Shown here one piece after another: positions 6,135 to 36,763 of a DNA stretch of 46,703 bases. Location of the stretch: sequence record NC_049947.1. The stretch is one strand, 5' to 3'. Positions within the stretch are counted from its first letter, which is position 1, and every line of letters begins with the position of its first letter. The position numbers and the translations under genes were made by a program. The notes under the pieces were generated by a model that saw only the letters and a list, made by a program, of their open reading frames with translations, did not search any database and had not been told where the DNA came from. The DNA is from Escherichia phage 1H12.

Positions 6135-7160
6135 ATGTCGATGTACACAACCGCCCAGCTGCTGGCGGCAAATGAGAAGAAATTTAAGTTTGATCCGCTG
6201 TTTCTGCGTCTCTTTTTCCGTGAGAGCTATCCCTTCACCACGGAGAAAGTCTATCTCTCACAAATTCCGGGACTGGTAAACATGGCGCTGTACGTTTCGC
6301 CGATTGTTTCCGGTGAGGTTATCCGCTCCCGTGGCGGCTCCACCTCTGAATTTACACCGGGATATGTCAAGCCGAAGCATGAGGTGAATCCGCAGATGAC
6401 CCTGCGTCGCCTGCCGGATGAAGATCCACAGAATCTGGCGGACCCGGCTTACCGCCGCCGTCGCATCATTCTGCAGAACATGCGAGACGAAGAGCTGGCC
6501 ATTGCTCAGGTCGAAGAGATGCAGGCCGTTTCTGCCGTGCTTAAGGGCAAATATACCATGACCGGTGAAGCCTTCGATCCGGTTGAAGTGGATATGGGCC
6601 GCAGTGTGGCGAACAACATCACGCAGTCCGGCGGTACGGAGTGGAGCAAGCGTGACAAGTCCACGTATGACCCGACCGACGATATCGAAGCCTACGCGCT
6701 GAACGCCAGCGGTGTGGTGAATATCATCGTGTTTGATCCGAAAGGCTGGGCGCTGTTCCGTTCCTTCAAAGCCGTCAAGGAGAAGCTGGATACCCGTCGC
6801 GGCTCTCATTCCGAGCTGGAGACAGCGGTAAAAGATCTGGGCGAAGCGGTGTCCTATAAGGGGATGTATGGCGATACGGCGATCGTCGTGTATTCCGGAC
6901 AGTACGTGGAAAACGACGTCAAAAAGAACTTCCTGCCGGACAACACGATGGTGCTGGGGAACACTCAGGCACGCGGTCTGCGCACCTATGGCTGCATTCA
7001 GGATGCGGACGCACAGCGCGAAGGTATTAACGCCTCTGCCCGCTACCCGAAAAACTGGGTGACCACCGGCGATCCGGCGCGTGAGTTCACCATGATTCAG
7101 TCAGCACCGCTGATGCTGCTGGCTGACCCTGATGCGTTCGTGTCCGTACAACTGGCGTAA
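6135..7160 (+). CDS. E: major capsid protein E
   Basis: ATG at 6135 in frame with ORF 6108..7160; MSMYTTAQLLAANEKKFKFDPLF matches lambda gpE. Confidence 0.95.
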   Translation: MSMYTTAQLLAANEKKFKFDPLFLRLFFRESYPFTTEKVYLSQIPGLVNMALYVSPIVSGEVIRSRGGSTSEFTPGYVKPKHEVNPQMTLRRLPDEDPQNLADPAYRRRRIILQNMRDEELAIAQVEEMQAVSAVLKGKYTMTGEAFDPVEVDMGRSVANNITQSGGTEWSKRDKSTYDPTDDIEAYALNASGVVNIIVFDPKGWALFRSFKAVKEKLDTRRGSHSELETAVKDLGEAVSYKGMYGDTAIVVYSGQYVENDVKKNFLPDNTMVLGNTQARGLRTYGCIQDADAQREGINASARYPKNWVTTGDPAREFTMIQSAPLMLLADPDAFVSVQLA

Positions 7161-7201
7161 TCATGGCCCTTCGGGGCCATTTTCTCTCTGTGGAGGAGTC
7201 C

Positions 7202-7597
7202 ATGACGAAAGATGAACTGATTGCCCGTCTTCAGGTGCTGGGTGAGCAACTGAACCGTGATGTCAGCCTGACGGGGACGAAAGAAGAACTGGCACTCCGT
7301 GTGGCAGAGCTGGAAGAGGAGCTTGATGACACGGATGACGCTGCTGGTCAGGACACATCTGTCAGCCCGGAAAATGCGCTGACCGGACATGAAAATGAGG
7401 TGGTATCAGCGCAGCCGGATACCGTGACTGATACGGCTGATCTGGTCACGGTTGTGGCACTGGTGACGCTGCATACTGATGCACTTCACGCCACGCGGGA
7501 TGAGGCTGTGGCATTTGTGCTGCCGGGAACGGCGTTCCGTGTCTCTGCCGGTGTGGCAGCTGAAATGACAGAGCGCGGCCTGGCCAGAATGCAATAA
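7202..7597 (+). CDS. FI: DNA packaging protein FI
   Basis: ATG at 7202 (MTKDELIARLQV...) after an RBS; one codon shorter than lambda FI. Confidence 0.9.
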   Translation: MTKDELIARLQVLGEQLNRDVSLTGTKEELALRVAELEEELDDTDDAAGQDTSVSPENALTGHENEVVSAQPDTVTDTADLVTVVALVTLHTDALHATRDEAVAFVLPGTAFRVSAGVAAEMTERGLARMQ

Positions 7598-7608
7598 CGG
7601 GAGGCGCT

Positions 7609-7962
7609 GTGGCTGATTTCGATAACCTGTTCGATGCTGCCATTGCCCGCGCCGATGAAACGATACGCGGGTACATGGGAACGTCAGCCACCATGACATC
7701 CGGTGAGCAGTCCGGTGCTGTGATACGTGGTGTTTTTGATGATCCTGAAAATATCAGCTATGCCGGACAGGGCGTGCGCGTTGAAGGCTCCAGCCCGTTC
7801 CTGTTTGTCCGGACTGATGATGTGCGGCAGCTGCGGCGCGGCGACACGCTGACCATCGGTGAGGAAAACTTCTGGATAGACCGGATTTCGCCGGATGATG
7901 GCGGAAGCTGTCATCTCTGGCTTGGGCGGGGCGTACCGCCTGCCGTTAACCGTCGCCGCTGA
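7609..7962 (+). CDS. FII: head-tail connector protein FII
   Basis: 117-aa ORF with GTG start; lambda gpFII position and sequence. Confidence 0.9.
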   Translation: MADFDNLFDAAIARADETIRGYMGTSATMTSGEQSGAVIRGVFDDPENISYAGQGVRVEGSSPFLFVRTDDVRQLRRGDTLTIGEENFWIDRISPDDGGSCHLWLGRGVPPAVNRRR

Positions 7963-7973
7963 AAGGGGGATGT

Positions 7974-8552
7974 ATGGCCATAAAAGGTCTTGAGCAGGCC
8001 GTTGAAAACCTCAGCCGTATCAGCAGAACGGCGGTGCCCGGTGCCGCCGCAATGGCCATTAACCGCGTTGCTTCATCCGCGATATCGCAGTCGGCGTCAC
8101 AGGTTGCCCGTGAGACAAAGGTACGCCGGAAACTGGTAAAGGAAAGGGCCAGGCTGAAAAGGGCCACGGTCAAAAATCCGCAGGCCAGAATCAGGGTTAA
8201 CCGGGGGGATTTGCCCGTAATAAAGCTGGGTAACGCGCGGATTGTCCTGTCCCGACGCAGGCGTCGTAAAAAGGGGCAGCGTTCAGCCCTGAAAGGTGGC
8301 GGCAGCGTGCTTGTGGTGGGAAACCGTCGTATTCCCGGCGCGTTTATTCAGCAACTGAAAAATGGCCGCTGGCATGTTATGCAGCGTGTGGCCGGGAAAA
8401 ATCGTTACCCCATTGATGTGGTGAAAATTCCGATGGCGGTGCCGCTGACCACGGCGTTTAAACAGAATATTGAGCGGATACGGCGTGAGCGTCTTCCGAA
8501 AGAGCTGGGCTATGCGCTGCAGCATCAACTGAGGATGGTAATAAAGCGATGA
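7974..8552 (+). CDS. Z: tail completion protein Z
   Basis: 192-aa ORF; lambda gpZ order and sequence. Confidence 0.9.
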   Translation: MAIKGLEQAVENLSRISRTAVPGAAAMAINRVASSAISQSASQVARETKVRRKLVKERARLKRATVKNPQARIRVNRGDLPVIKLGNARIVLSRRRRRKKGQRSALKGGGSVLVVGNRRIPGAFIQQLKNGRWHVMQRVAGKNRYPIDVVKIPMAVPLTTAFKQNIERIRRERLPKELGYALQHQLRMVIKR

Positions 8553-8944
8553 AACATACTGAACTCCGTGCAGCCGTACTGGATGCACTGGAGAAGCATG
8601 ACACCGGGGCGACGTTTTTTGATGGTCGCCCCGCTGTTTTTGATGAGGCGGATTTTCCGGCAGTTGCCGTTTATCTCACCGGCGCTGAATACACGGGCGA
8701 AGAGCTGGACAGCGATACCTGGCAGGCGGAGCTGCATATTGAAGTTTTCCTGCCTGCTCAGGTGCCGGATTCAGAGCTGGATTCGTGGATGGAGTCCCGG
8801 ATTTATCCGGTGATGAGCGATATCCCGGCACTGTCAGATTTGATCACCAGTATGGTGGCCAGTGGCTATGACTACCGGCGCGACGATGATGCGGGCCTGT
8901 GGAGTTCAGCCGATCTGACTTATGTCATTACCTATGAAATGTGA
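8549..8944 (+). CDS. U: tail terminator protein U
   Basis: 131-aa ORF overlapping the Z stop; lambda gpU. Confidence 0.9.
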
Positions 8945-32965: not shown

Positions 32966-33547
32966 ATGAACAACTCATGGTGGCAGGAACTAATGCATTT
33001 TTTCCTGCAAGGAATGACACTTAAACAGTTGATTCATATGCTAATCATCCTGATCATATTGATTATTGTTATGCCTGTAAGCGTAAAAGAATGGATAAAC
33101 CTGCATAATCCAGAAATCCTTCCTCATTACTGGATGTATTACATCCTGTTGTTTTGCGTTAGCTATGTGCTTAACGGCGTTGTTAATTCCGCTTATCACG
33201 CTGTGACTGTAAGAATTGAGATATTCGCTGCTCAGAAGCGCAAATCTAAAGAAGAGAAATACGTGCAAGATTTGTTTGATTCGTTAACTCTTGGAGAAAG
33301 AGCGTATTTGGCATTCGCTGTAGCCGCTAATAACCAGCTAAAGACAGAAAAGGGAAGCCCTGAAGCAATCTCATTGCTCGAAAAAGGGCTTCTTATTCGG
33401 GTACCTTCTGCTACTGGATATCCTGAAATCGACCGTTTTGTTATCCCGGAACGCTATAGAAATGAGTGCTACATTAGGTTTGCTGGGAAGAAAGACAGTC
33501 TTATGGATGAACTTATCGCTCAGGATAAGCATGGCAAAAACAAGTAA
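32966..33547 (+). CDS. sieB: superinfection exclusion protein B
   Basis: 193-aa ORF with an N-terminal membrane segment (MNNSWWQELMHFFLQGMTLKQLIHMLIILIILIIV), matching lambda/Rac SieB; transcribed opposite to the early-left operon. Confidence 0.85.
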   Translation: MNNSWWQELMHFFLQGMTLKQLIHMLIILIILIIVMPVSVKEWINLHNPEILPHYWMYYILLFCVSYVLNGVVNSAYHAVTVRIEIFAAQKRKSKEEKYVQDLFDSLTLGERAYLAFAVAANNQLKTEKGSPEAISLLEKGLLIRVPSATGYPEIDRFVIPERYRNECYIRFAGKKDSLMDELIAQDKHGKNK

Positions 33548-33563
33548 TTAGCAAATGAATTTA

Positions 33564-33872
33564 TCATCTCGCCGTCAGTTGTTTTGATTTCCGGTAGCCT
33601 GCCGCGTAAATAGCTACGTTTGGCAGGCAAACACTTCCACTGCATTCATCTACTTTCTTGCAGCGAAGGCTTCCGAGTGATATTGCTTTTTCAGAAAGGC
33701 TTAACCGCTTTCTCGGGTCTTCCTGAACAGGTTCCTCACTGTCTGTGCCGAAGATCGAATCGATGATGTTGCAGATGGAATCACGCTCGATGGCCAGCTT
33801 TCTGCGCCGCTCATGACGGCGAGTTTTGGCATTTCCTGCAAATGTTGATTTTCCGTACACGATTACCGTCAT
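33564..33872 (-). CDS. N: antitermination protein N (P22 gene 24 type)
   Basis: Internal ATG gives MTVIVYGKSTFAGNAKTRRHERRRKLAIERD..., an arginine-rich motif closely resembling P22 gp24. Confidence 0.8.
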   Translation of the reverse strand: MTVIVYGKSTFAGNAKTRRHERRRKLAIERDSICNIIDSIFGTDSEEPVQEDPRKRLSLSEKAISLGSLRCKKVDECSGSVCLPNVAIYAAGYRKSKQLTAR

Positions 33873-33990
33873 GATGTTTTCCTCATGTGAAATGGCTTTG
33901 GTGGTGATGCGCCAGATGCTGATCTTCTGGTTGCTGTCGTTACTGCTGCAATTCACATCACCCCAAACCCATCTCGTTTGGTATCTGTTC

Positions 33991-34023
33991 GCGCTTTGTC
34001 AGCGCATCATCGAAGTTAAAGAG
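33991..34023 (-). promoter_or_regulatory. nutL: nutL (boxA and boxB), P22-type
   Basis: Reverse strand reads boxA-like gctctttaa then boxB hairpin gcgctgacaaagcgc upstream of N. Confidence 0.6.
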
Positions 34024-34288
34024 CCTGCCAATCTGTTCCGTTTGGCTGCCAGCGTCCTGCTGATGGCGATTATAATGAACCAATAGTTCGATATTATCAA
34101 GAACTATAAGTACGAATTGTTTGTGGTTCATTAACTTAATGAGATATGTTTTTGATATGTAAAGGAATTTATTTTTGTAAAGATTGAAGATTGGTCAGTA
34201 GGAGAGAAAGAATTGTTTGCTGGCGTGTTAGTTCGTGGGTTAGCACATGTGCGGATGTTAAATAAGGTAGACGATCGTGAGGAAAAGA

Positions 34289-34311
34289 AAAACCGGCGCT
34301 GAGGCCGGGTA
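34289..34311 (-). terminator. putative rho-independent terminator after the 299-aa gene
   Basis: Reverse strand: cccggcc-tcagc-gccgg then tttttcttttcc, starting 4 nt past the stop codon. Confidence 0.55.
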
Positions 34312-34314
34312 TAA

Positions 34315-35214
34315 TTATTTGATTATTTCTTTTATAAAGACTTCTTTCGGTTGGTATTTTTTATCTGATGATTTGAGCTGGTACGTTATTGTTATATCAG
34401 CACGTACAGAAAATTTACCTGCAAAATCTGATGGGTTTACGTTGGGGCCAAGAACCATATTTACTCTTCGATCTATTAATCCAGGGATAACAGCAGCCCA
34501 ACCTTTCTCTGGATTGTCGAGGTCTAATGCACGGATTTCAACATCAACATCAAAATGATCCTGAGTATATGACTCTGGTGTGAAGACAACTTCAGTTGGG
34601 GCTTTTTTAATGGTTTCAGCGGGAATGGTCACTGTACCACCCCCTGTACCTATGACCATCGTAGATCCTTCGTCTGCCCTAGCTGGGGCAAGCGTCTTAA
34701 TGGAACTTTTGGCAAGAGTCTTCTTATTGGTTACCGTGCTTTCTATGATTGCTTGAAGACGGTCAGGTGAAATATTAGCCTCACCGGCACCAATATTGAT
34801 GATTGTATTGTTATTTGCTTCAAAGTGGGAGGTGTTGCTTGGAGCCATAGCCTTAGTTGCTAGAACTAAGCCATATCCAACCAGACCAATAACAACAGCA
34901 CCAACGAGAGCGTTTCTCATTTTCCCATTTCCGATCTTTGCATGAGCGCCAGCAAGAAACTTGTCCATTTCTTCTTGGCTACCAAAGAGGAGTTTAATAA
35001 CAATATCTTCATAAAGGCTTCCTGCTTCTAATCGCGCAACATGCACCGATATATCAAGGATATTAGCCCCTGTCAGTTCCTGCAAAACACCTTCTGATTG
35101 TTTTGCGATGGCCTCCCACCCTTGAAGGGAGGTAATCACATCTTTGATGCTTACAGGTTCTTTAGTTGAATAATATATGTTTTCGGTAAAGGTTAAAGAT
35201 AATTCTTGGGACAT
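34315..35214 (-). CDS. hypothetical single-pass membrane protein at the rexAB-equivalent position (candidate phage exclusion / abortive-infection protein)
   Basis: 299-aa ORF with RBS gaggg 5 nt upstream; one hydrophobic segment (~residues 100-122, NALVGAVVIGLVGYGLVLATKAM); AT-rich; lies between cI and the pL/nutL/N region. Confidence 0.65.
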   Translation of the reverse strand: MSQELSLTFTENIYYSTKEPVSIKDVITSLQGWEAIAKQSEGVLQELTGANILDISVHVARLEAGSLYEDIVIKLLFGSQEEMDKFLAGAHAKIGNGKMRNALVGAVVIGLVGYGLVLATKAMAPSNTSHFEANNNTIINIGAGEANISPDRLQAIIESTVTNKKTLAKSSIKTLAPARADEGSTMVIGTGGGTVTIPAETIKKAPTEVVFTPESYTQDHFDVDVEIRALDLDNPEKGWAAVIPGLIDRRVNMVLGPNVNPSDFAGKFSVRADITITYQLKSSDKKYQPKEVFIKEIIK

Positions 35215-35343
35215 CCGAGCCCTCGCTGTTTCTTTCGATTTGCTGTGTTAAGCTAATATTTTAATATCCATGTTTCTGTTTGCTTGCAGTGTGTTTCTCA
35301 CCACCATCCAAACGTACTGGTTACTAGCTATGTGATGATGAAG

Positions 35344-36051
35344 TCATGAACTTTTCAGCCATTCCCTGGCCTCGATGTCATCTAGGTGGCGAGATTGCTT
35401 CAGAATACCAGCTACATACTCCACCTTTGCTACTTGATGATAAGGCAACGTTATTGGCCTGTGGTCTTGGTTGATGCTTGTAAATTGGTATTCTCCGTCT
35501 CTGTCATAGCCAAGAACCTTGATCATGTTGTGCCCTTCAATGGTTCTGACAAACACCTCATCACCTGGGAATACTTTGGTGTTAGGCTCAATGAGTACAT
35601 ATTCTCCTGATTTTATTCTGGGCCACATGCTGTCTCCTTTTACACGAAGACCAAAGGCATCTGGATCATCGCTATAAATCTTGAGCCACCCATCGCGCTC
35701 TTCGGTCATCTCGATGGCACCATCAACACCAAGAATTGCCTCACCAACCACGCGCACTAACCCTTTTTTTAATTTGCCAACAATTGAAAAAGTATCTTCA
35801 TCATTCGCTCCATTTAACGAAGTGCCGTGCTGAAGCCAAACAACATCAACGTTTAGAAATTTCGCAAGCGCATTCATTTTTTCCTGGCGTGGTAAAGACT
35901 CAGCATTAAACCATTTGCTAACGCCTTTGGACGAAAGAGAAAGGGCACGGGCTATGGCCATTCCCCTACCATGTTCATCAAGACCAGCTTCTTTACAGGC
36001 TTGCGCTAGCCGCTGGGCGAATTCTTTGCGCACTTTTTCATTCTGAACCAT
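35344..36051 (-). CDS. cI: CI prophage repressor (HTH plus S24 LexA-like autopeptidase)
   Basis: 235-aa ORF with an N-terminal HTH and C-terminal S24 Ser/Lys region (GDSMWPRI...K), divergent from cro. Confidence 0.85.
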   Translation of the reverse strand: MVQNEKVRKEFAQRLAQACKEAGLDEHGRGMAIARALSLSSKGVSKWFNAESLPRQEKMNALAKFLNVDVVWLQHGTSLNGANDEDTFSIVGKLKKGLVRVVGEAILGVDGAIEMTEERDGWLKIYSDDPDAFGLRVKGDSMWPRIKSGEYVLIEPNTKVFPGDEVFVRTIEGHNMIKVLGYDRDGEYQFTSINQDHRPITLPYHQVAKVEYVAGILKQSRHLDDIEAREWLKSS

Positions 36052-36129
36052 GAGTACGATACTAAAGCACTTGCAAAAACTTTCAGTTCAACCATAATGC
36101 GTACTGAAAGTACGAAAAAGGACATTCCT
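36052..36129. promoter_or_regulatory. OR: OR operator / pRM-pR divergent promoter region
   Basis: Intergenic between divergent cI and cro; perfect palindrome cgtactgaaagtacg (36100..36114) and related half-site actttcagt (36079..36087). Confidence 0.6.
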
Positions 36130-36357
36130 ATGCAAAATCTTGATGAGCCGATTAAAGGTGTCGGCATCCCTGAAGTTGCGAAGGCTTGTGGAGTTAGCGA
36201 AAGGGCTGTCTATAAGTGGCTCAAAAACGGCTTCCTCCCTAAGACTGAGTTTTTTGGGAAAACGAAATACGCATCAAAAATCGAAGAGATTTCTGGTGGC
36301 AAATATCAAGCAAGCGAAATGCTTGAAATAAGCAAAAAGAACCTTCTGGCAGCATAA
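36130..36357 (+). CDS. cro: Cro repressor
   Basis: ATG at 36130 after RBS aaaaagga; 75-aa HTH protein (GIPEVAKACGVSERAVYKWL), divergent from cI. Confidence 0.8.
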   Translation: MQNLDEPIKGVGIPEVAKACGVSERAVYKWLKNGFLPKTEFFGKTKYASKIEEISGGKYQASEMLEISKKNLLAA

Positions 36358-36363
36358 GTAACA

Positions 36364-36398
36364 CCGCTCTTTATCAATCTGCACCGCCGACAACGCGG
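36364..36398 (+). promoter_or_regulatory. nutR: nutR (boxA and boxB), P22-type
   Basis: boxA cgctcttta followed by boxB hairpin accgc-cgacaac-gcggt. Confidence 0.6.
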
Positions 36399-36463
36399 TA
36401 ACTAATTAAGAACTCATCGAAAGATGCGTATTAGTGATTATTTACCTATGGAAATAGTAAGAA

Positions 36464-36763
36464 ATGGAACAAACAAATTACAGCAAACTATCACAGCGCG
36501 ACGTTGATCGCGCAGAAACAGATTTACTTATCAACCTGTCAACGCTTACTCAGCGCGGTCTGGCAAAGATGATTGGCTGTCATGAATCGAAGATAAGCAG
36601 AACAGACTGGAGGTTTATAGCTTCGGTCTTGTGTGCTTTTGGCATGGCATCAGACATCAGTCCGATTAGCAGAGCTTTTAAGTATGCGCTTGATGAAATC
36701 ACCAATAAAAAACGCCCGGTGTGCAAGACCGAGCGTTCTGAACAAATCCAGATGGAGTTCTGA
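36464..36763 (+). CDS. cII: transcriptional activator CII
   Basis: 99-aa ORF; C-terminus TNKKRPVCKTERSEQIQMEF matches lambda CII. Confidence 0.85.
   Translation: MEQTNYSKLSQRDVDRAETDLLINLSTLTQRGLAKMIGCHESKISRTDWRFIASVLCAFGMASDISPISRAFKYALDEITNKKRPVCKTERSEQIQMEF

What the first reader, a model, noticed from the sequence alone, without database searches (positions are those of the whole stretch)
34289..35343. Uncharacterised 299-aa single-pass membrane protein in the rexAB slot between cI and pL/N
In lambda the segment between cI and the pL-nutL-N region holds the rexA-rexB exclusion system. Here it holds one AT-rich 299-aa ORF (34315..35214, minus strand) with a good RBS, its own terminator 4 nt past the stop, a ~100-aa N-terminal domain, one hydrophobic helix and a ~175-aa C-terminal domain. 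I recognise no family. Position, repressor-linked expression, membrane anchoring and foreign base composition suggest a prophage-encoded exclusion or abortive-infection function; this is the best candidate here for an undescribed system.
Basis: partly seen in the sequence, partly recalled or inferred. Interest (0 to 1): 0.85.

Follow-up and report, generated by a model that had tools for sequence, protein, structure and literature searches.

The report
Unknown membrane protein beside prophage repressor
A lambda-like phage carries, in the place where lambda keeps its rexAB exclusion genes, a conserved single-pass membrane protein from a large, completely uncharacterised family. Its family usually sits just behind prophage repressor genes, which makes it a good but untested candidate for a new way prophages protect their hosts from other phages.

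Summary
ORF 34315..35214 (-) encodes a 299-aa protein between cI (35344..36051) and oL/pL-nutL-N, with an RBS, one transmembrane helix and an intrinsic terminator.

The gene is real:
- dN/dS is 0.02-0.10 against close relatives.
- 663 clusters at 50% identity match, all about 300 aa.

Predicted topology is N-in/C-out: a ~100-aa cytoplasmic alpha/beta domain, the TM helix, an invariant ANNNxIINIGAG juxtamembrane motif, a helical linker and a periplasmic five-stranded barrel carrying RAxDxD..GW.

Context across 31 non-redundant loci:
- 17 lie co-oriented downstream of a CI-type repressor (10 directly), in phages of Enterobacterales, Pseudomonas, Accumulibacter and a cyanobacterium.
- Others sit antisense between Q and the lysis genes, after a spanin gene, beside an integrase, or after a satellite-type primase.
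- Most carry their own terminator.

It is therefore a mobile, lysogeny-expressed single-gene moron in a known exclusion and abortive-infection hotspot. Best reading: an envelope-level superinfection-exclusion or defence protein. Function is inferred, not shown.

The parts
34315..35214 (-). orf299: 299-aa bitopic membrane protein, phrog_4506, RefSeq WP_000076839/WP_000076840 'hypothetical protein'
   Evidence: ORF list. phrog_4506 at E 1e-170. Homologues. dN/dS 0.02-0.10. RefSeq annotation.
34915..35214 (-). N-terminal domain, aa 1-100: beta-alpha-beta-beta-alpha, predicted cytoplasmic. Conserved residues YYST..PV.I, L30, G65-S66-L67, F77.
34843..34911 (-). Single transmembrane helix, aa ~102-124 (ALVGAVVIGLVGYGLVLATKAMA), with near-invariant G115
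   Evidence: Hydropathy peak 2.24. 168 of 191 family members have exactly one segment above 1.6. G115 is at least 90% conserved.
34783..34818 (-). Juxtamembrane motif A133-N-N-N-x-I-I-N-I-G-A-G144, invariant among 33 relatives down to 30% identity
   Evidence: Alignment A1 invariant columns. Still the majority consensus in 191 sequences.
34324..34572 (-). C-terminal five-stranded beta-barrel, aa 215-297, predicted periplasmic. Conserved I227-R-A-x-D-x-D233, G238-W239, R250.
35220..35224 (-). Ribosome-binding site GAGGG, 5 nt upstream of the ATG
   Evidence: Read from the sequence. Conserved in cassette copies L025-L028.
35215..35343 (-). 129-nt cI-orf299 spacer with no terminator or promoter-like match. 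The last ~50 nt travel with the gene as part of the cassette.
   Evidence: Scan. Upstream alignment. The lambda cI-rexA spacer is 112 nt.
34283..34308 (-). Intrinsic terminator, a 5-bp all-GC stem plus T tract, 6 nt after the stop. Functional analogue of lambda's terminator at the end of the immunity operon.
   Evidence: Scan. A terminator is present just after the stop in 22 of 35 representative family loci, with the same CCCGGCC..CCGGG stem at different insertion sites.
35344..36051 (-). cI repressor (HTH + S24 peptidase), upstream gene of the presumed operon
34072..34135 (-). oL operator-like repeats and pL-like promoter (TTGATA-17-CATTAT)
   Evidence: Repeats D3, D14 and I17 shared with the oR region 36044-36116. 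Promoter scan.
33991..34026 (-). nutL: boxA-like GCTCTTTAAC and P22-type boxB GCGCTGACAAAGCGC
   Evidence: Sequence read. The boxB identity with P22 is from my own knowledge.
33564..33872 (-). N antiterminator with P22-type arginine-rich motif
   Evidence: ORF and annotation. ARM sequence GNAKTRRHERRRKLAIER.

Best explanation
orf299 is a self-contained lysogeny-expressed cargo gene (a moron).

Expression. In this phage it is transcribed with cI from the repressor promoters and ends at its own terminator just before oL/pL.

Product. It is a bitopic inner-membrane protein. A ~100-aa alpha/beta domain faces the cytoplasm. One TM helix crosses the membrane. A ~175-aa portion faces the periplasm: an invariant Asn/Gly-rich juxtamembrane helix, a helical linker and a small beta-barrel.

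Proposed role. I propose that it protects the lysogen against other phages by acting at the inner membrane. The version I favour is superinfection exclusion: the periplasmic barrel and juxtamembrane motif bind a conserved envelope or injection-route component, so that incoming phage DNA cannot cross the inner membrane. In this version the cytoplasmic domain and the glycine-rich TM helix serve oligomerisation or anchoring.

What is shown: the gene, its conservation, its position, its terminator, the single TM helix, the lack of any known family, and the recurrent repressor-linked context.

What is inferred: co-transcription with cI, the topology, any anti-phage activity, and the stage at which infection is blocked.
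For: Position and signals:
- It sits exactly in the lambda rexAB slot with near-identical spacing.
- No terminator or promoter lies between cI and the ORF.
- This slot is a documented hotspot that holds the abortive-infection systems rexAB and bstA (PMC8585504).

Context, 31 non-redundant family loci:
- 17 lie co-oriented within four genes downstream of an HTH/S24 or CI-type repressor, 10 of them directly adjacent. These include relatives of only 24-38% identity in Pseudomonas, Accumulibacter and cyanobacterial phages.
- Copies of the cassette at 94% identity or more sit behind different repressors.
- Other insertion sites are classic moron or defence-cargo sites: antisense between Q and the lysis genes with a conserved TTGCGT-17-TATATT promoter-like element, after a spanin-like gene (DUF2514), beside an integrase, and after the primase of an AlpA-primase island.
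- 22 of 35 representative loci have their own terminator.

Protein:
- It always travels alone, is always ~300 aa and is never fused to another domain.
- There is a single TM helix, and the flanks carry 3.2 K+R on the N side against 1.1 on the C side. 164 of 191 members follow N-in.
- The strongest conservation is in the predicted periplasmic part.
- Selection is strongly purifying.

Precedents, from my own knowledge apart from the papers cited: membrane-anchored prophage proteins encoded next to the repressor block DNA entry, for example lactococcal Sie2009, S. thermophilus Ltp and HK97 gp15.
Against: - No experiment exists, and there is no homology to any known exclusion or defence protein. 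PADLOC gives 0 hits, and the PHROG matches are all 'unknown function'.
- The family HMM gives negative bit scores against RexB and SieB, and no RexA match was reported even at E up to 1000.
- Known injection blockers are small and need no 100-aa conserved cytoplasmic domain. That domain is unexplained in the favoured version.
- Deep conservation and dN/dS of 0.02-0.10 in every domain contrast with the rapid diversification typical of proteins that recognise phage parts.
- 8 of 31 loci have no interpretable context.
- The phage already carries sieB.
- The topology rests on the positive-inside rule only.
- I could not read Brenes & Laub 2025, a screen of E. coli prophage defences, so prior characterisation there is not excluded.
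Confidence: 0.45

Rival explanations
1. Abortive infection by a single protein. The cytoplasmic N-terminal domain, or the periplasmic domain, senses infection. The glycine-rich TM helices then oligomerise and the Asn-rich juxtamembrane helix lines a pore that collapses membrane potential. This would work like RexB or other TM effectors, killing the infected cell before phage release.
For: - It sits in the same slot as the two best-known repressor-linked Abi systems, rexAB and bstA.
- Small-residue and glycine motifs and a near-invariant G115 lie in the TM helix, followed by an invariant polar NNN..N..GAG helix.
- A conserved cytoplasmic domain could act as the sensor.
- TM proteins in defence systems are usually regarded as suicide effectors (PMC9122126).
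Against: - One TM helix per subunit and a 175-aa folded periplasmic portion are not needed for a depolarising pore.
- No partner sensor gene is ever linked.
- There is no similarity to RexB or to any PADLOC effector.
- Oligomerisation was not tested.
Confidence: 0.2
2. Lysogenic conversion unrelated to phages. The protein changes envelope physiology of the lysogen, for example stress tolerance, cell-wall or membrane homeostasis, or modulation of a host membrane complex. It is carried because it raises host fitness.
For: - Invariant periplasmic motifs and uniform purifying selection across hosts from enterobacteria to a cyanobacterium suggest binding to a universal envelope component rather than to a phage part.
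- Moron sites also carry non-defence cargo such as bor, lom and stx (my own knowledge).
Against: - The family was recovered here in phage, prophage or satellite-like contexts, although about a quarter of the loci could not be interpreted and no host-chromosome survey was made. It prefers the repressor operon.
- There is no link to any host pathway gene.
Confidence: 0.2
3. A regulator of the prophage's own lysis-lysogeny switch. The architecture resembles anti-sigma factors such as RseA: cytoplasmic domain, TM helix, periplasmic sensor. The protein could tether or release a cytoplasmic factor in response to envelope signals and so tune induction, as RexA biases the lambda switch.
For: - The N-in bitopic layout with ~100 aa inside and ~175 aa outside matches the membrane-tethered regulator layout (my own knowledge).
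- The gene is in an operon with the repressor.
- RexA has a reported role in the switch (PMC11077077 abstract).
Against: - Nearly identical cassettes sit behind unrelated repressor types and at sites far from the repressor, including antisense in the late region and in a satellite-like island with no repressor nearby. The protein therefore does not co-evolve with a cognate repressor.
- The N-terminal domain has no HTH or anti-sigma fold.
Confidence: 0.08
4. The ORF is not a functional gene but a chance ORF or a decaying remnant.
For: Occasional inactivated copies exist: an IS1 insertion in E. coli EECO1006 and split ORFs in L030 and L060.
Against: - dN/dS is 0.02-0.10 with synonymous sites near saturation.
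- 663 homologous clusters have conserved length.
- The AF2 model is confident, with pLDDT 86.
- The RBS and terminator are conserved.
Confidence: 0.01

Closest known systems
Lambda RexA/RexB
   Same: Same slot: downstream of cI, same strand, ending at a terminator ~175 nt before oL. Presumed expression from the repressor promoters. A membrane component is involved.
   Different: Rex needs two genes: cytosolic RexA of 279 aa and RexB of 144 aa. RexB's four TM helices are from my own knowledge. Here one 299-aa single-pass protein stands alone. There is no sequence relationship: the family HMM scores below zero bits against RexB and reports no RexA match.
BstA of Salmonella prophage BTP1 (Owen et al. 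2021, PMC8585504)
   Same: A single-gene cargo downstream of the prophage repressor with its own Rho-independent terminator. Its family is spread over diverse Gram-negative prophages, and the repressor-linked architecture is conserved.
   Different: BstA localises to sites of phage DNA replication inside the cell (abstract). Its KilA-N-like DNA-binding domain is from my own knowledge. orf299 is membrane-anchored, has no KilA-N or other Pfam domain and has no PADLOC hit.
Membrane-anchored superinfection-exclusion proteins: lactococcal Sie2009, S. thermophilus Ltp, HK97 gp15, T4 Sp/Imm, P22 SieA
   Same: Prophage- or phage-encoded proteins of the cytoplasmic membrane or its outer face that block DNA entry. 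Several are encoded beside the repressor or as morons. These descriptions are from my own knowledge; P22 SieA is covered in PMC10883804, listed.
   Different: All are much smaller (~60-170 aa) and lack a conserved 100-aa cytoplasmic domain. There is no sequence relationship: the PHROG scan returned only unknown-function families.
PdpSau of Staphylococcus aureus prophages (PMC10127798)
   Same: A single membrane-anchored prophage accessory protein that gives abortive infection against lytic phages (abstract).
   Different: It comes from Gram-positive phages. Its location at the lysis-module moron site is from my own knowledge. I did not compare PdpSau directly, and no scan here suggested a relationship.
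phrog_4506
   Same: orf299 is a full-length member: E 1e-170, residues 1-299 on profile positions 1-300.
   Different: The PHROG carries no function or category, so membership names the family but explains nothing.

Membership tests
Lambda Rex exclusion system | Homology to RexA and RexB | tested here: not met
   Family HMM against lambda proteins with all filters off: RexB -1.2 bits, RexA not reported even at E up to 1000. No PHROG or PADLOC match.
Lambda Rex exclusion system | Two-gene organisation: sensor plus multi-pass membrane protein | tested here: not met
   One gene lies between cI and the terminator. Family members travel alone in 31 non-redundant loci.
Lambda Rex exclusion system | Position downstream of cI in the repressor operon, ending before oL/pL | tested here: met
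BstA family | BstA/KilA-N-type N-terminal domain in a soluble protein | tested here: not met
   No Pfam domain at E up to 10 apart from chance-level hits. One TM helix is present. 0 PADLOC families.
Known superinfection-exclusion families (SieA, SieB, Imm, Sp, gp15, Cor/Llp) | Sequence membership in the corresponding phage protein families | tested here: not met
   A scan of all 38,880 PHROGs gave only phrog_4506, phrog_3243 and phrog_7211, all of unknown function. The family HMM scores -2.7 bits against the window's own SieB. That the PHROG library contains those reference families is from my own knowledge.
Known anti-phage defence systems (PADLOC-DB 2.0.0) | Match to any defence or candidate-defence protein model | tested here: not met
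   0 families at E up to 10. Neighbours in other loci also gave none. Systems described after 2023 were not covered. The accession is absent from the DefensePredictor supplements, several of which were truncated when stored.
Moron (autonomous cargo gene of temperate phages) | Present in some but not other related phages, at different insertion sites | tested here: met
   Present in 150 of 5426 complete E. coli genomes. At least five kinds of insertion site.
Moron (autonomous cargo gene of temperate phages) | Own terminator | tested here: met
   Window. 22 of 35 representative loci.
Moron (autonomous cargo gene of temperate phages) | Own promoter | tested here: inconclusive
   A conserved TTGCGT-17-TATATT element lies upstream of the antisense Q-lysis copies. 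No promoter-like site occurs in the window's 129-nt spacer. These are consensus matches only.
Moron (autonomous cargo gene of temperate phages) | Base composition different from the flanking phage genes | tested here: not met
   41% GC, the same as the surrounding 39-45% immunity region.
Moron (autonomous cargo gene of temperate phages) | Expressed from the prophage during lysogeny | not testable with these tools
   Inferred from operon geometry only. It needs RNA-seq of a lysogen.
Bitopic N-in/C-out inner-membrane protein | Exactly one TM helix and no signal peptide or lipobox | tested here: met
   Hydropathy. 168 of 191 members have one segment. The N terminus is a folded polar domain.
Bitopic N-in/C-out inner-membrane protein | Orientation | tested here: inconclusive
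   The positive-inside rule favours N-in in 164 of 191 members. This is a prediction only and needs PhoA/LacZ fusions.

The most novel reading that the evidence does not exclude
orf299 founds a new class of one-protein, outside-in phage sensors. The conserved periplasmic barrel and juxtamembrane motif would detect a tail tip or tape-measure protein, or the envelope damage made during genome injection. The signal would cross the single TM helix to the conserved cytoplasmic domain, which then triggers a response such as pore formation, growth arrest or release of a factor. This would be transmembrane signalling of phage attack before any phage gene is expressed, carried by prophages from enterobacteria to cyanobacteria.
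Probability: 0.12. Interest if true: 0.85.

Novelty: new variant of a known kind. Interest (0 to 1): 0.6.

Why it matters
The cI-N slot of lambdoid phages gave biology rexAB and, more recently, bstA. This gene is a third, unrelated occupant, and it belongs to a family of several hundred sequence clusters with no name, no domain and no structural relative. It follows prophage repressors across very distant phages.

If it blocks or aborts infection, it would add a new protein architecture to prophage-encoded immunity: substantial conserved domains on both sides of the inner membrane. It would also mark about 3% of complete E. coli genomes, among them clinical isolates, as carrying it, which is relevant to phage-therapy host range.

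The test is cheap, because one gene of 900 bp can be cloned and plated against standard phage panels. If the gene has no anti-phage effect, that would be a useful reminder that a position in a defence hotspot is not evidence of defence.

Tried and rejected
Searches that found no known family or fold:
- Pfam, NCBIfam and PADLOC on the protein.
- Pfam on 94 diverse members and on 7 further members. Only chance-level hits came back: DUF1206, ApeA_NTD1, PycTM.
- PDB by sequence with phmmer and with the family profile: nothing.
- Foldseek against PDB: no hit at E 0.001 or below, TM-scores 0.19 or less.
- BFVD: only uncharacterised phage proteins, one of them DUF6575.
- afdb50 was unavailable.
- Rfam on 33400-36500: nothing.

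Rejected leads:
- The UniRef name 'Baseplate protein J-like' on one homologue has no Pfam support.
- The 57-aa ORF 33958-34131 overlaps oL/pL and nutL and is not a gene.
- The second 302-aa protein in Serratia locus L013 is unrelated.
- The GYG in the TM helix is not a channel filter. Only G115 is conserved.

Literature:
- No paper mentions WP_000076839, WP_000076840, A0A234Z8H0 or phrog_4506.
- The accession is absent from the DefensePredictor supplements.
- SNIPE, HepS and the Fc02 exclusion genes are different proteins.
- Brenes & Laub 2025 could not be obtained.
- The alignment A2 was too divergent for the search for related loci, so A1 was used instead.

Full report
WHAT THE WINDOW IS. 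The window is essentially identical to Escherichia virus Lambda_2E9 (LR595860, 46,702 bp) and to eight sister isolates. It is a lambdoid temperate phage. The gene order around the finding is int, xis, exo, bet, gam, kil, ea10, sieB (+ strand), N, the ORF in question, cI, then cro, cII, O, P and ren on the other strand.

THE OBSERVATION.
- The ORF runs from 35214 to 34315 on the minus strand and encodes 299 aa.
- GAGGG lies 5 nt before the ATG.
- A GC-only 5-bp hairpin with a T tract follows at 34308-34283, starting 6 nt after the stop.
- The 129-nt spacer after cI has no terminator-like or promoter-like site.
- Downstream, sequences at ~34072-34135 repeat the operator-like elements found between cI and cro, and they include a TTGATA-17-CATTAT promoter match.
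- Then come a boxA-like element and the boxB GCGCTGACAAAGCGC (34005-33991), followed by N with a P22-type arginine-rich motif.
- In lambda itself the cI-rexA spacer is 112 nt and rexB ends 173 nt before oL3. Here the figures are 129 and 179 nt.

The gene therefore occupies the rexAB slot precisely. The ORF is 41% GC against 50% for the window, but the whole 32-37 kb immunity region is 39-45% GC.

IT IS A REAL, CONSTRAINED GENE.
- Against cassette copies of 94-97% protein identity, dN/dS is 0.02-0.10 in every domain, with synonymous sites approaching saturation.
- The exact protein is on at least 1000 contigs.
- The gene is in 150 of 5426 complete E. coli genomes at 99% identity or more.
- A word-indexed search found 56 clusters at 90% identity.
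- A full HMM search of 1.84 billion representatives found 663 clusters at E 0.001 or below, 286 of them at 1e-30 or below. Nearly all are 290-335 aa and matched end to end, so there are no domain fusions.
- Rare copies are broken by IS1 or by frameshifts.

NO KNOWN FAMILY.
- Pfam, NCBIfam and PADLOC give nothing significant.
- The only strong hit is phrog_4506, function unknown.
- None of 94 diverse members hits a Pfam family above noise.
- RefSeq, UniProt and the phage records call the protein hypothetical.
- A profile search of all PDB sequences finds nothing.

ANATOMY OF THE PROTEIN.
- Residues 1-95 fold as beta-alpha-beta-beta-alpha. Conserved residues are L30, G65-S66-L67 and F77.
- Residues ~102-122 are the only hydrophobic helix (peak hydropathy 2.24). 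It is rich in small residues, and G115 is almost invariant.
- After a short variable linker comes A133-NNN-x-IINIGAG-144. This motif is invariant in 33 sequences down to 30% identity and is modelled as a helix.
- Residues 150-205 are short helices.
- Residues 215-297 form a five-stranded barrel carrying IRAxDxD (227-233), G238-W239 and R250. W239 and P206 are invariant across 94 sequences whose mean column identity is 25%.
- Across 191 members, 168 have exactly one TM segment. The 15 residues before it carry 3.2 Lys+Arg on average against 1.1 after it, and 164 members follow this bias.

The predicted topology is therefore N-in/C-out. It remains a prediction.

CONTEXT ACROSS THE FAMILY. I combined annotated phages, contigs that carry homologues and 50 IMG/VR loci. 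I called genes crudely, clustered the neighbours and checked key neighbours against Pfam. The result for 31 groups at 90% identity is:

| Context of the family gene | Groups |
|---|---|
| Co-oriented within four genes downstream of an HTH_3/Peptidase_S24 or Phage_CI_repr repressor | 17 (10 directly adjacent) |
| Antisense between antiterminator Q and the holin-lysozyme genes | 3 |
| After a DUF2514 spanin-like gene | 1 |
| Beside an integrase | 1 |
| After the Toprim/DUF927 primase of an AlpA-primase island in Serratia | 1 |
| Uninterpretable | 8 |

- The repressor-linked groups include Pectobacterium prophages with a different switch (YdaS/YdaT), Pseudomonas phages at 24% identity, Mu-like elements of Accumulibacter, and a cyanobacterial phage.
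- Copies of the E. coli-type cassette at 94% identity or more follow different repressors.
- About 50 nt upstream of the gene, and the CCCGGCC..CCGGG terminator, move with it.
- The antisense copies share a TTGCGT-17-TATATT element upstream.
- 22 of 35 representative loci have a terminator right after the stop.
- In two loci, an HSDR_N protein and a Hypoth_Ymh protein share the slot with the family gene.

This is the behaviour of a single-gene moron designed for expression in the lysogen.

INTERPRETATION. The cI-N interval is described as a hotspot of mosaic diversity that carries rexAB in lambda and bstA in BTP1, and bstA homologues also follow repressors (PMC8585504). The accessory position of satellites is a validated reservoir of defence systems (PMC9122126). 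By position, autonomy and membrane location, the most likely role is protection of the lysogen against other phages.

I favour an envelope-level block to genome entry for two reasons. The best-conserved parts are predicted to face the periplasm, and membrane-anchored, repressor-linked exclusion proteins are the commonest precedent (my own knowledge). However, the conserved cytoplasmic domain is not explained by that model. An abortive-infection pore or a transmembrane signalling mechanism remains open.

Strong purifying selection and conservation across phyla suggest that the partner is a conserved envelope component rather than a variable phage protein. This also keeps a non-defence envelope function alive. 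A role as a regulator of its own repressor is unlikely, because the cassette is indifferent to repressor type and also sits far from any repressor.

VERDICT. The protein family is new to every library searched. The kind of element, a repressor-linked prophage cargo gene in an exclusion hotspot, is known. Interest is moderate to high because the experiment is simple and the family is large.

Noticed in passing
window 32966-33547 (+): A sieB-type superinfection-exclusion gene (193 aa, hydrophobic N-terminal half) lies antisense between N and ea10. The phage therefore already carries one recognised exclusion gene besides orf299.
   Followed up: partly
window 33958-34131 (-): A 57-aa ORF (the record LR595860 instead annotates a 195-nt ORF on the opposite strand just beside it) overlaps the oL/pL operator-promoter region and nutL. 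It is almost certainly not a gene.
   Followed up: partly
window 33564-34026 (-): N carries the P22-type arginine-rich motif GNAKTRRHERRRKLAIER, and nutL has the matching boxB GCGCTGACAAAGCGC. The record calls cro 933W-like. The immunity and antitermination modules thus appear to have mixed ancestry.
   Followed up: no
E. coli EECO1006 NZ_CP090319 2225178-2227009 (hit H23); loci L030 5498-6404 and L060 6016-6908: orf299 is interrupted by an IS1 element in one complete E. coli genome. It is split into two ORFs in two viral contigs. Loss of the gene is therefore tolerated now and then.
   Followed up: partly
L058 3917-5914 and L064 (same arrangement): Between the HTH gene and the orf299 homologue sit a 385-aa HSDR_N protein and a 263-aa Hypoth_Ymh protein. 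This may be a further cargo or defence pair in the same repressor-linked slot.
   Followed up: partly
L010, L014, L035, L043, ~60-110 nt upstream of the homologue: The copies inserted antisense between Q and the lysis genes share a conserved upstream block containing TTGCGT-17 nt-TATATT. It is a likely dedicated promoter that the cI-linked copies lack.
   Followed up: partly
L004/L005 (Accumulibacter Mu-like element) 6508-8900: Here the homologue follows a 161-aa gene that clusters with repressors (no Pfam hit) and a 289-aa protein of unknown function. It directly precedes the Mu-like protease and capsid genes, an unusual layout for a transposable phage.
   Followed up: no
E. coli genomes: Two of the 151 places lie on plasmids rather than chromosomes. 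They may be phage-plasmids or prophage fragments and were not examined.
   Followed up: no
protein P0014 (Kluyvera intermedia homologue): Its UniRef cluster name is 'Baseplate protein J-like domain-containing'. No Pfam Baseplate_J match exists at E up to 1, so the name looks like an annotation error.
   Followed up: yes
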